DNA from: a virus
Lineage: Duplodnaviria > Heunggongvirae > Uroviricota > Caudoviricetes
DNA length: 64,000 nucleotides
Virus record (IMG/VR): IMGVR_UViG_2529293141_000015
Span: 1-64,000 of that record
Reading direction: 5' to 3' (one strand)
In this document: positions 46,001 through 49,000 of the stretch, one piece after another
How positions within the stretch are numbered: position 1 is the first letter of the stretch
How the letters are laid out: each line of letters opens with the position of its first letter
Made by a program: the position numbers

Positions 46001-49000
46001 GATTCAGTCAAACAGCCGCCAGCTGCAGGAGCACAATGCACGTCTGAATGACCATCAACGCCAGATTCGTGAAAACCACGAAGAGATGAAACGCGCAGCG
46101 GCACAGAGCGCAGCACTTGCCGGTCTGTTCCAGCCGTACAGTGTGGGCAAATTCAACGCCACGGCAGCCCTGGGTGGTTACAGTGACAAACAGGCCGTTG
46201 CTGTCGGTGTGGGCTACCGTTTCAATGAGCAGACCGCAGCGAAAGCGGGTATTGCAGCAAGCGACGGTGACGTTTCTTACAACGTGGGCGTTAACTTCGA
46301 GTTTTAATTGCTGACAGTGACATGAAGCATGACGGCAGGTGCGGGATTTTGGCCTGCCGTTTTTTTCATGTGTTCAGAGACAGTGAGGAGATGCGATGAA
46401 GGTGATTCTGGCGACCCGCAACCGTTATCTGGAGTACGGCCTGCAACAGATGCTTGAGGGGTACAGTGTCATACTGGCCCGGGAATTTTTTATGCCGGAG
46501 AACAGGAAGCACACACCGGAGAATAATGAATCATGGGTGATTATCTGTGATGCGCTGCTTGGCAGGCTGATGCGCTGTATGTTTCAGGGACGCCGTTATC
46601 TTCAGCTGGATGCGGAGGAGATGACGGGGCGTCTGGATACATACAGGAAAATCCGTAACGGTGACTGGGTGCAGAACACGTATGCGCGTCCTCTGACGAT
46701 GTCCGAGATGGTGGTGATGTTTGGTTATGTGTACCGTGAGTCAAAGCCGTGTCATCTTGCGCGTGAAATGGGGATAAATACGAAGACGGTGAACACCTTT
46801 CTGTATCTGGGGCTTGGTAAAAATGGCCTGAGGTACAGGAGTGTGAAGCACCTGGTGGGACTGGCATAGCCGTATTGTTATCCGGTACTGAAGAGCAATC
46901 AGGTAAATTGTCATGAAACAGGCAAATCTGAAATACGTAAAGAAGCGCTACACAGCAGGAGCGATGTGTTTCATGCTTTTTGTGTGGCTGGGTGCAGTGG
47001 TGACGCTCTGTGCAGTGGCTGCCGTAATGATGCAATAAAGAAAGGGGAGCAACATGCTCCCCGACCAGAAGAAAGACGTTTGATAACAATTAGTGAGTTG
47101 TTACGTCTTGCCCAGAATATCATAGCAACACTCTGTTGTAGTGATTCCGATCGCGATTTTAGCGAATTCCACCATAAATCCCCTGATTTTTAATCCTGAA
47201 GCAGTCAAAGGAATTTCTATGCCTTATATCGATATCACCACGATGCGTGGGATGATGCCGCGCGTTGTGACATCCATGCTGCCCGATCATTCCGCTGTAC
47301 TGGCGGAGGACTGCCATTTCCGGTTTGGTGTTATTACACCAGAACGTCAGATATCCGGGGTTGAGAAAACATTCACAATTAAGCCAAAAACAATTTTTCA
47401 TTACCGTGATGATTTTTGGTTTGCGTGGCCGGATGTGGTGGATGTGATCCGCAGTCCCGTTGCTCAGGATAATTACGGGCGGATTTACTACACTGACGGA
47501 AAATTTCCAAAAGTCACGGCTGCTGAAATTGCCACTAAAGGAGAGGGTAATTTCCCTGCTGCATCATATCGTCTGGGGATCCCTGCACCGACAACAGCAC
47601 CTGTTTGTACAGTTCAGCGCGGGGAAGCGATTTCTGATGATAACCCGAATGATGATGAAACACGCTTTTATACCGAAACCTTTGTATCGGCGTATGGTGA
47701 GGAAGGGCCTCCCGGACCTGAATCGCTGGAAGTCACCGTGGGGATCCCTGATACTCCGGTTCAGTTAACACTCTCTCCGGTTCCGTTGCAGGACGCAAAC
47801 ATCAATCGTCGTCGTATTTATCGTTCTGTCTCAGGGGGCGGAGAAGCCGATTTTTTACTCGTGGCTGAGCTTGAAGCATCCGTGCTCAGTTACACGGACA
47901 ACATACCGGCGAAAAACCTCGGACCTTCTCTTGCAACATGGGATTACCTGCCGCCGCCGGAGAATATGACAGGTCTTTGCCTGATGGCTAATGGTATTGC
48001 CGCCGGGTTTGCCGGTAATGAAGTGATGTTTTCGGAAGCGTATCTGCCGTATGCATGGCCGGAAGTGAATCGTCACACGACGGCAGAAGATATTGTGGCT
48101 ATCTGTCCGCTGGGAACGTCACTGGTGGTGGCGACAAAGGGGGAGCCTTATCTGTTCAGTGGTGTATCGCCTTCCACAATTTCTGGCTCCAGAATTCCTT
48201 CCATGCAGGCATGCCTGAGCCGAAGAAGTATGGTGGCGATGGAGGGATTCGTACTCTATGCTGGGACAAACGGTCTGGTATCTGTTGATGTAAACGGTAA
48301 TACAGCACTGGCAACGGAAAAGATTATTTCACCTGAACAGTGGCAGAGTCAGTTTAACCCGGCGTCCATTGTGGCTTATTCCTGGCGTGGTGAGTACATT
48401 GCCTGTTACACGAAACCGGATGGTAAGCAGGATGTGTTTGTATTCAGTCCGGTGAACATGGATATCCGTTATCTCAGTACACCGTTTGACTGCGCATGGG
48501 TTGATCTCGCGAAAGATATGATGCGCGTGGTGACAGGAGACAAAATGTCAGTGCTTGCCGGGGGCTCTCTGCCATCCACGATAAGGTGGCATTCAAAAAT
48601 TTTTTCATTACCTGAAAGAACCTCTTTTTCCTGTATCAGGGTGAAATCTCCGGCACCTGAGTGGGTGGGGATCACCGTTATGGCTGATGATGTTCCTGTG
48701 ATTCATTTTGCGCCGGGTACGTTTAAGGGAAATGTGGTGAGACTTCCGGCAGCAACCGGGCAAAACTGGCAGGTGATGGTATCCGGATTCGGGCAGGTGG
48801 AACGAATAACCCTGAGTACATCGATGTCGGAGCTACCGATATGAGCAAAAAACCGTGGCGTGCGGGGAAGGATTTATCCACTGTTGTGGAGAACATGGAA
48901 ATTGGCACCGGGCAGCGTGGTGACGGACGACACGCGTTTGTGACCCGTGAAGAACTGGTAGGTCTTAAGCTGGCCCGCCGTCGGGCGTCACTGACGGGGA

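What the first reader, a model, noticed from the sequence alone, without database searches (positions are those of the whole stretch)
46913..47041. Small 42-codon hydrophobic ORF with downstream GC hairpin between the regulator gene and the tail genes
A single-TM peptide sits in an intergenic gap and is followed by the hairpin ggggagc...gctcccc. It could be a small membrane protein or toxin-like peptide, or nothing. It is below the ORF-track threshold.
Basis: seen in the sequence. Interest (0 to 1): 0.2.

Follow-up and report, generated by a model that had tools for sequence, protein, structure and literature searches.

The report
Conserved small membrane protein gene
The 41-codon ORF is a real, conserved gene for a tiny single-pass membrane protein that always travels with an adhesin and a regulator gene in E. 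coli prophages; it has been annotated since 2000 (as ORF-60) and its function has never been studied.

Summary
An ATG ORF of 41 codons lies at 46913-47038 (+). A unique, stable hairpin, GGGGAGC-AACAT-GCTCCCC, lies at 47044-47062.

The ORF is not a chance ORF. It is intact in at least 10 diverged lineages. Its core GAMCFMLFVWLG is invariant although the codons differ. dN/dS is 0.04-0.2 with saturated dS, and variable sites fall mostly at third codon positions.

It always follows a homologue of 'ORF-156', which itself follows a YadA-type trimeric adhesin gene. ORF-156 models as an atypical RcsB/EvgA-like regulator. This three-gene cassette occurs in lambda-like, 933W-like, prophage-end and ICE-like contexts.

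The ORF belongs to the ORF-60A/C/D family of the P-Eib prophages (GenBank, Sandt & Hill) and to PHROG 9340. RefSeq annotates this exact copy as WP_000806402.1. The family appears confined to E. coli, and its function is unknown.

The predicted product has a basic cytoplasmic N-terminus (+5) and one transmembrane helix running to the C-terminus. I infer a small membrane-protein modulator rather than a toxin; this is untested.

The hairpin is oriented as a minus-strand terminator, so it is not the ORF's own terminator. Where the adhesin and regulator are absent (Stx2 phage 86, O104:H4, 933W), the ORF is frameshifted or truncated.

The finding is ordinary but real: low novelty, modest interest.

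The parts
46913..47038 (+). orfS: a 41-aa small membrane protein gene of the ORF-60 / PHROG 9340 family. It has a basic N-terminus (residues 1-16) and a transmembrane helix running to the C-terminus. Stop codon TAA at 47036-47038.
   Evidence: (RefSeq WP_000806402.1)
46901..46903 (+). Shine-Dalgarno-like AGG, 9 nt before the ATG. Purine-rich motifs occupy the same position in the other lineages.
   Evidence: read from the sequence
47044..47062 (-). GC-rich hairpin (8 pairs, loop of 3; -15.4 kcal/mol). It is oriented as an intrinsic terminator for the minus strand.
   Evidence: recurs with stem variants in other lineages
47034..47043 (-). T-run of the minus-strand terminator (TTTCTTTATT). It overlaps the last codon and the stop codon of orfS.
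46396..46869 (+). ORF-156 homologue (157 aa), an atypical NarL/FixJ-type regulator (RcsB/EvgA-like). It is the constant upstream partner of orfS, with a 43-nt gap in this window.
   Evidence: (PHROG 6585)
45174..46307 (+). YadA-anchor trimeric autotransporter adhesin (377 aa), the first gene of the cassette.
   Evidence: (PF03895, E 4.2e-16)
46341..46367 (+). Intrinsic terminator-like hairpin plus T-run after the adhesin gene, about 30 nt before the ORF-156 ATG.
   Evidence: equivalent stem-loops are annotated in AF151675/AF151676
47063..47160 (.). A spacer of about 95 nt after the hairpin that recurs next to L0124, ykgJ and dinI in other genomes. Its role is unresolved.

Best explanation
orfS is a genuine protein-coding gene. 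It is the third gene of a mobile three-gene cassette (a 'moron'): a YadA-type trimeric adhesin, then ORF-156 (an atypical RcsB/EvgA-like regulator), then orfS. The product is a 41-43 aa inner-membrane protein. Its basic N-terminal ~16 residues should stay in the cytoplasm, and one transmembrane helix runs to the C-terminus. It is expressed together with ORF-156: the gap between them is 43-53 nt, or the start overlaps as ATGA. Transcription would come either from read-through of the adhesin terminator in lysogens or from late transcription in 933W-type phages. The first half of the helix (GAMCFMLFVWLGG) is invariant while the N-terminus only keeps its charge. From this I infer sequence-specific helix-helix contact with a membrane partner or with itself. 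That would make it a small-protein modulator of the MgrB/SafA/AcrZ kind, possibly linking ORF-156 or adhesin expression to the envelope, rather than a non-specific membrane-damaging peptide. The hairpin is a minus-strand intrinsic terminator at the right edge of the cassette. It would stop convergent transcription (dinI or ykgJ in other genomes) and is not the terminator of orfS. Shown: the gene is real, it is under purifying selection, it is linked to ORF-156 and the adhesin, its predicted topology, and the hairpin's orientation. Inferred: co-transcription, the modulator mechanism and the insulating role of the hairpin.
For: The frame is intact with the same C-terminal end in lineages L002/3/6-13 and L021, at 74-88% DNA identity. 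NG86 dN/dS is 0.04-0.2 between lineages with dS at or above 0.66 and often saturated. Variable columns number 29 at codon position 3, 15 at position 1 and 9 at position 2. The 12-residue core is invariant despite synonymous changes in 9 of its codons. A start Met lies at or within one codon of the same alignment position, with an SD-like motif, in every lineage. orfS starts 43-53 nt after the ORF-156 stop or overlaps it as ATGA. The gene order adhesin, ORF-156, orfS is kept in lambda-like P-EibA/C, 933W-like, prophage-end and ICE-like contexts, and in the most divergent member found. It matches PHROG 9340 at E 1.5e-16. There are 45 protein clusters, and every one that carries a source name is labelled E. 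coli. An exhaustive HMM scan of 1.84 billion representatives found only 9 close relatives. The N-part has charge +2 to +5, the C-part has 25 uncharged residues with KD 2.1-2.3, and residues 14-40 are predicted helical with pLDDT above 90 over 21-40. ORF-156 models at pLDDT 80, and its best PDB fold matches are RcsB, StyR, EvgA, FixJ and VpsT; a weak LuxR HTH sequence match agrees. Copies without ORF-156 and the adhesin are decayed: frameshifted in Stx2 phage 86, O104:H4 and O111, and reduced to 12 codons in 933W. For the hairpin, the T-run is on the minus strand only. It stays with orfS rather than with dinI. The 7th stem pair changes from C-G to T-A in L007, and the stem is lengthened by TG/CA in L010-12.
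Against: There is no experimental evidence of translation or membrane insertion, and no paper in the searchable library mentions the gene. No promoter-like site was found for ORF-156 or orfS, so the expression route is inferred. The modulator mechanism rests only on the conservation pattern and on analogy; no partner is identified. The decay of orphan copies could simply reflect the deletion events that removed the neighbours. The hairpin is absent after orfS in P-EibA/C and L021 and is truncated in L013, so it is not an obligatory part. In this window no minus-strand gene faces it.
Confidence: 0.6

Rival explanations
1. orfS is a type I toxin-like, membrane-damaging peptide acting as an addiction or abortive-infection function. 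Its mRNA would run through the hairpin and be controlled by a convergent minus-strand RNA that ends at the hairpin. This resembles 3'-overlapping type I systems such as txpA/RatA or bsrG/SR4.
For: It is a short hydrophobic peptide with a basic N-terminus, like ShoB or Ibs (own knowledge). A minus-strand terminator abuts the stop codon. A recurring spacer of about 95 nt lies downstream, and its minus strand folds well (z = -4.1). The plus strand has no terminator, so the mRNA would overlap any such RNA.
Against: orfS is in an operon-like arrangement with ORF-156, coupled by an ATGA overlap in some lineages, which is unusual for type I toxins. No sigma-70-like promoter was found on the minus strand. 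There was no Rfam hit. No conserved structure other than the terminator was found in the spacer. The hairpin and spacer are absent in P-EibA/C and L021, where orfS is intact. The invariant 12-residue core suggests a specific contact.
Confidence: 0.12
2. orfS is a small inner-membrane protein for superinfection exclusion or phage defence, carried among tail-fibre-region morons. It would resemble the HK97 gp15 type and act independently of the adhesin and regulator.
For: It lies in the tail-fibre moron region. In Stx2 phage 86 its remnant lies next to the exclusion gene cor. It is confined to prophages and one ICE-like element.
Against: There was no PADLOC hit. It is never found intact without ORF-156, and orphan copies are decayed. 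It is also present at a non-phage ICE-like locus together with the adhesin and regulator.
Confidence: 0.1
3. orfS is a biogenesis or surface-display helper for the neighbouring trimeric autotransporter adhesin. This would be loosely analogous to SadB for SadA.
For: It is strictly linked to YadA-anchor adhesin genes whose passenger domains differ widely.
Against: It has essentially no periplasmic portion, since the helix ends at the C-terminus. It is separated from the adhesin gene by a terminator and by the regulator gene. Eib adhesins are functional when expressed recombinantly from plasmids, according to PMC4352079.
Confidence: 0.1
4. The ORF is not a gene. It is open by chance, and the conservation reflects an overlapping nucleic-acid element or recent common ancestry.
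For: The window holds 311 ATG-ORFs of this size or larger. PGAP leaves intact copies unannotated in several genomes.
Against: The lineages are saturated at synonymous sites yet keep the protein sequence. Variation is concentrated at third positions. The start and stop positions are conserved. The frame is kept in about 45 protein clusters.
Confidence: 0.03

Closest known systems
ORF-60A / ORF-60C / ORF-60D of prophages P-EibA, P-EibC and P-EibD of E. coli ECOR-9 (GenBank AF151091, AF151674, AF151675; Sandt & Hill), equal to PHROG 9340
   Same: It is the same protein family, with 61-75% identity and an invariant GAMCFMLFVWLG core. It occupies the same position directly after ORF-156 and has the same C-terminal end. 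In P-EibD the same hairpin follows.
   Different: The window copy is limited to 41 codons by upstream in-frame stops. The GenBank entries are annotated with a 17-residue N-terminal extension that starts at the ORF-156 stop codon. The adjacent adhesin in the window resembles EibA only in its first ~50 residues. No function is assigned to any member.
Small single-pass membrane modulators of E. coli (MgrB, SafA, AcrZ, MgtS)
   Same: They share the size class and a single transmembrane helix. safA is co-transcribed with a transcription-factor gene (ydeO), much as orfS sits with ORF-156 (own knowledge).
   Different: There is no sequence similarity. No partner is known. orfS has no periplasmic or cytoplasmic domain beyond its ~16 basic residues. 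The comparison is an analogy, not membership.
Type I toxins of enterobacteria (Ibs, ShoB, TisB, Hok, Ldr)
   Same: They are short hydrophobic peptides. A convergent terminator next to the stop codon leaves room for an antisense RNA.
   Different: There was no Rfam match and no antisense promoter. orfS is in an operon with a regulator gene and always occurs within an adhesin cassette.
Rho-independent (intrinsic) terminators
   Same: It has a GC-rich 8-bp stem with a 3-nt loop followed directly by a T-run, but on the minus strand.
   Different: On the strand of the ORF the stem is followed by GACCAGAAG, with no U-run. It is therefore not a canonical terminator for orfS.

Membership tests
ORF-60 / PHROG 9340 small protein family | Significant match to the family profile over its whole length | tested here: met
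   phrog_9340 E 1.5e-16, residues 3-41 against profile positions 5-43 of 43; tblastn matches to ORF-60A/C/D at 2e-9 to 3e-8
ORF-60 / PHROG 9340 small protein family | Located directly downstream of an ORF-156 homologue, which follows a YadA-anchor adhesin gene | tested here: met
   43-nt gap after ORF-156 in the window; the same order is seen in 10 other loci
ORF-60 / PHROG 9340 small protein family | Basic N-terminus followed by one hydrophobic helix ending in ...MQ* | tested here: met
Type I toxin-antitoxin system | Small hydrophobic peptide under 60 aa | tested here: met
   41 aa, one transmembrane helix
Type I toxin-antitoxin system | Antisense or adjacent small RNA gene with its own promoter | tested here: inconclusive
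   A minus-strand terminator is present. No minus-strand promoter-like site was found, there was no Rfam family, and no conserved structure appeared in the spacer.
Type I toxin-antitoxin system | Toxin gene is a separate transcription unit with its own regulated leader | tested here: not met
   orfS starts 43-53 nt after ORF-156, or overlaps it as ATGA, in all lineages
Type I toxin-antitoxin system | Growth arrest or membrane damage on expression | not testable with these tools
   Needs an induction experiment
Intrinsic terminator of the orfS transcript (plus strand) | GC-rich stem-loop followed by a U-run on the transcribed strand | tested here: not met
   The stem is present, but the scan reports the site on the minus strand only. 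The plus-strand tail is GACCAGAAGAAAG.
Intrinsic terminator (minus strand) | GC-rich stem-loop followed by a U-run on the transcribed strand | tested here: met
   GGGGAGCATGTTGCTCCCC followed by TTTCTTTATT. The same layout is seen in 8 lineages.
Bacterial lipoprotein / cleavable signal peptide | Lipobox L-[AST]-[GA]-C, or a mature domain after the hydrophobic region | tested here: not met
   The sequence around C33 is V-T-L-C, C33 is not conserved, and the ORF ends with the hydrophobic segment
Anti-phage defence proteins (PADLOC models) | Match to a defence-system profile | tested here: not met
   0 families for orfS, ORF-60D and ORF-156
NarL/FixJ (LuxR-type) response regulators (for the partner ORF-156) | Receiver-like alpha/beta domain plus a C-terminal LuxR-type HTH | tested here: inconclusive
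   Best fold matches are RcsB, StyR, EvgA and FixJ, but at E 1.5e-3 to 1e-2 and TM 0.3-0.48. The LuxR HTH sequence match has E 0.05. No Pfam domain passes threshold. The acidic pocket is absent (T7-R8-N9), although D52 is invariant.

The most novel reading that the evidence does not exclude
ORF-156 (an RcsB/EvgA-like regulator without a phosphorylation pocket) and orfS (a membrane-embedded micro-protein) may form a cassette-encoded, kinase-less signalling pair. The pair would couple envelope or mechanical cues to transcription of the neighbouring adhesin. This could be the unknown regulator behind the reversible switching of Eib adhesins between static growth and agitation (PMC4352079). A second, less likely novel reading is that orfS and a minus-strand RNA ending at the hairpin form a 3'-overlapping type I toxin-antitoxin pair that stabilises the cassette.
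Probability: 0.15. Interest if true: 0.55.

Novelty: already known. Interest (0 to 1): 0.27.

Why it matters
The result turns an unscored intergenic ORF into a well-supported gene. It also shows that gene callers treat the gene inconsistently: it is annotated in some RefSeq genomes and missing in others with an intact copy. The cassette of adhesin, atypical regulator and micro-protein is carried by Shiga-toxin-producing and commensal E. coli. Its adhesins drive immunoglobulin binding and chain-like adhesion, and how their expression is regulated is not understood. The two conserved downstream genes are the obvious untested candidates. The decayed remnants in 933W-type and O104:H4 Stx phages indicate that ancestors of these phages once carried such a cassette. 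Beyond that, this is a narrow, E. coli-restricted family of unknown function and not a new kind of system.

Tried and rejected
**Searches that found nothing**
- Rfam on 44500-48500 at E up to 5 gave only two chance-level hits.
- Pfam, NCBIfam and PADLOC gave no family for the peptide. FAM176, at 15 bits against a cutoff of 31.5, was rejected as a hydrophobic-segment artefact.
- PLSDB plasmids searched by tblastn gave no match.
- Literature searches for ORF-60/ORF-156, for the peptide motif, and for eibG plus LuxR found nothing about the gene.
- The Sandt & Hill 2000 paper is not held, so what its authors said about ORF-60 is known only from the GenBank annotation.
- The EibG papers I read do not discuss the downstream genes.

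**Ideas tested and dropped**
- A relic of ykgJ or dinI coding sequence between the hairpin and the tail gene: tblastn found none.
- A conserved structured small RNA on the minus strand: RNAalifold found only the terminator stem.
- The hairpin being simply the dinI terminator: rejected, because dinI matches in other phages stop at the dinI stop codon and the hairpin stays with orfS.
- Distant relatives in other genera: the exhaustive profile search found none.

**Not possible**
- A model of an ORF-156/orfS complex could not be made, because only window-encoded or retrieved sequences may be submitted.
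Full report
**1. Observation**

The window has an ATG ORF at 46913-47038 (+) of 41 codons plus TAA: MKQANLKYVKKRYTAGAMCFMLFVWLGAVVTLCAVAAVMMQ. 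An AGG lies 9 nt before the ATG. Five nucleotides after the stop codon sits GGGGAGC-AACAT-GCTCCCC at 47044-47062. This motif is unique in the window, with none found in 100 shuffles. It folds at -15.4 kcal/mol, z = -5.2. The residues before the AMCF core carry a net charge of +5. The last 25 are uncharged with mean hydropathy 2.16, and AlphaFold2 gives a single helix over residues 14-40. An ORF of this size is not remarkable by itself, since the window holds 311 ATG-ORFs of at least 41 aa. The question is therefore comparative.

**2. Where the window comes from**

The region is 100% identical to prophages of Shiga-toxin-producing E. coli such as 2012EL-2448 and JNEC-KY202. The local gene order is as follows:
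- tail-fibre genes and a DUF4376 gene;
- a 377-aa adhesin with a YadA anchor (PF03895);
- a terminator-like hairpin with a T-run at 46341-46367;
- a 157-aa ORF at 46396-46869;
- the small ORF, followed by the hairpin;
- 933W L0124/L0125-type tail genes.

RefSeq already annotates the small ORF in these genomes as WP_000806402.1, hypothetical protein.

**3. The ORF is a gene**

tblastn and blastn find the same ORF in the P-EibA, C, D and E prophage fragments of ECOR-9. There it is annotated as ORF-60A/C/D and follows ORF-156. It also occurs in phage GER2, the PhiR12/PhiR5 phages and several E. coli chromosomes.

End-aligned translations show an intact frame with the same C-terminus (...MQ*) in nine lineages. 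The lineages differ by 12-26% in DNA, and the alignment needs no indels over the last 32 codons.

Nei-Gojobori estimates on those 32 codons give dN/dS of 0.04-0.2 between lineages. dS is at or above 0.66 and often saturated. Variable columns number 29 at the third, 15 at the first and 9 at the second codon position. The core GAMCFMLFVWLG is invariant, although nine of its codons show synonymous variants.

Every lineage has a Met at, or within one codon of, the same alignment position, preceded by a purine-rich motif. The 60-codon GenBank annotation is an upstream extension that the window copy cannot have, because of in-frame stops.

The peptide matches PHROG 9340 (unknown function) at E 1.5e-16. 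It has no Pfam, NCBIfam or PADLOC family. A profile search of 5.8 billion proteins returned 45 clusters, and every cluster that carries a source name is labelled E. coli. An exhaustive HMMER scan of 1.84 billion representatives found only nine, all close. About 2% of complete E. coli genomes (106 of 5426) carry the sequence, with up to six copies per genome and none on plasmids.

**4. The company it keeps**

In every locus with an intact copy, orfS follows an ORF-156 homologue. The gap is 43-53 nt, or the start overlaps as ATGA. ORF-156 in turn follows a YadA-anchor adhesin gene.

The cassette is found in several settings:
- behind lom/orf-401 in lambda-like P-EibA;
- before L0124 in 933W-like phages (this window, P-EibD, GER2);
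- at prophage ends facing dinI or ykgJ;
- in an ICE-like region next to a RAQPRD plasmid-family gene.

The most divergent member found (39 aa, from a metagenome contig next to the hya operon) has the same order. The adhesin passenger is highly variable: the window adhesin resembles EibA only in the first ~50 residues. ORF-156 and orfS are the conserved part.

ORF-156 has no Pfam domain above threshold. Its AlphaFold2 model (pLDDT 80) best matches RcsB, StyR, EvgA, FixJ and VpsT, weakly but consistently (E 1.5e-3 to 1e-2). A profile of the family hits LuxR-type HTH chains at E 0.05. The usual acidic pocket is missing (T7-R8-N9), while D52 is invariant. I read it as an atypical, probably phosphorylation-independent NarL/FixJ-type regulator.

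**5. Orphan copies decay**

In Stx2 phage 86, POCJ13, the O104:H4 outbreak lineage and O111 strains, the adhesin and ORF-156 are absent. The orfS sequence follows cor, and internal deletions of 14-32 nt shift the frame; this is the 48-aa 'orf24', PHROG 32751.

In 933W itself, L0123 is the N-terminal part of an ORF-156 homologue. The HTH part survives in another frame, and only the last 12 codons of orfS (MLLVATAAMIMQ*) remain before the hairpin. In O111:H8 strain 8E a deletion fused the start of the DUF4376 gene to the orfS helix at a shared 'GAM'.

I found no intact orfS without ORF-156. This suggests, but does not prove, that orfS is useful only with its neighbours.

**6. The hairpin**

The scan reports the hairpin as a terminator on the minus strand: GGGGAGCATGTTGCTCCCC followed by TTTCTTTATT. 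The T-run overlaps the last codon and the stop of orfS. The plus strand continues GACCAGAAG, with no U-run.

The layout of stop codon, 4-5 A residues, then hairpin is kept in eight lineages. The stem varies among them: GGGGAGC/GCTCCCC, GGGGAGCTG/CAGCTCCCC, and GGGGAGT/ACTCCCC, the last being a change on both sides.

In PhiR12_1 the hairpin lies 12 nt beyond the stop of a convergent dinI. However, dinI matches in phages without the cassette end at the dinI stop codon, so the hairpin travels with orfS. It is absent after orfS in P-EibA/C and in the metagenome member.

I interpret it as a reverse-oriented terminator at the right edge of the cassette that blocks convergent transcription. In this window nothing faces it, so here it may be vestigial.

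A spacer of about 95 nt after the hairpin recurs in L0124, ykgJ and dinI contexts. Its minus strand folds well (z = -4.1), but no conserved structure or promoter was found. This remains unexplained.

**7. How it most likely works**

Shown: orfS is a gene under strong purifying selection. It encodes a peptide that is predicted to be a single-pass membrane protein. It is tightly linked to a regulator-like gene and an adhesin gene.

Inferred: positive-inside topology (N-terminus in the cytoplasm), co-expression with ORF-156, and action through a sequence-specific helix contact. The last point rests on the conservation pattern. The first half of the helix is invariant, with glycines 11 residues apart and a mid-membrane Trp and Cys, whereas the N-terminus conserves only its charge. 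This pattern fits small-protein modulators such as MgrB, SafA or AcrZ better than detergent-like toxins.

The rivals cannot be excluded without experiments. They are a type I toxin, a superinfection-exclusion protein and an adhesin helper.

| Claim | My probability |
|---|---|
| Real small-membrane-protein gene | about 0.95 |
| Modulator mechanism specifically | about 0.4-0.5 |

**8. Comparison and verdict**

The ORF is a member of an already annotated family: ORF-60 of the P-Eib prophages, PHROG 9340, RefSeq WP_000806402.1. I found no published functional study of it.

The finding is correct and ordinary in kind. It is of modest interest because the conserved pair of regulator and micro-protein next to clinically relevant adhesins is unexplored. 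Eib expression is known to switch with agitation through unknown regulators (PMC4352079).

Noticed in passing
window 45174-46307: The 377-aa YadA-anchor adhesin resembles EibA only in its signal peptide and first ~50 residues. The window is 99.7-100% identical to strains JNEC-KY174 and JNEC-KY202 (O128ab:H2), which were sequenced for the 2026 Nat Commun study that defined the Cla and Yal adhesin lineages. The adhesin may therefore belong to one of those lineages rather than to the canonical Eib group.
   Followed up: partly
window 46396-46869: ORF-156 has no Pfam or NCBIfam family. It models as a shortened RcsB/EvgA/FixJ-like regulator with a LuxR-type HTH. The acidic phosphorylation pocket is missing, but the Asp at the phospho-acceptor position is invariant. 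Like orfS, the family appears confined to E. coli.
   Followed up: partly
window 46341-46367: A terminator-like hairpin with a 7-T run follows the adhesin gene only ~30 nt before the ORF-156 start codon, and no promoter-like site lies between them. ORF-156 and orfS would depend on terminator read-through or on phage late transcription.
   Followed up: no
L005 (phage 933W, AF125520) 2616-3030: 933W gene L0123 is the N-terminal fragment of an ORF-156 homologue. The HTH part survives out of frame, followed by the last 12 codons of orfS and an intact hairpin. 933W-type Stx phages thus carry the wreck of an adhesin cassette.
   Followed up: yes
L004 (Stx2 phage 86) 3010-3156; also the O104:H4 and O111 prophages: The annotated 48-aa 'orf24' (PHROG 32751) is a frameshifted remnant of orfS lying directly after cor, not an independent gene.
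   Followed up: yes
window 47063-47160 (minus strand): A spacer of about 95 nt after the hairpin recurs next to L0124, ykgJ and dinI in different genomes. Its minus strand folds at z = -4.1. A possible extended -10 (TGCTATGAT, minus strand, 47109-47117) was seen by eye only. No conserved structure or scanned promoter was found. It could be a small RNA or a 3'-UTR relic.
   Followed up: partly
L015 4001-4135 (E. coli O111:H8 strain 8E, CP077465): A 44-aa chimeric ORF joins the first residues of the DUF4376 tail-fibre-region gene to the orfS helix at a shared 'GAM'. The adhesin and ORF-156 have been deleted.
   Followed up: partly
L010 2543-2668 and L011 2544-2669 (E. coli IBS28 and A30): RefSeq/PGAP leaves intact orfS copies unannotated in some genomes while annotating identical-length copies in others. 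Annotation of this small gene is inconsistent.
   Followed up: no
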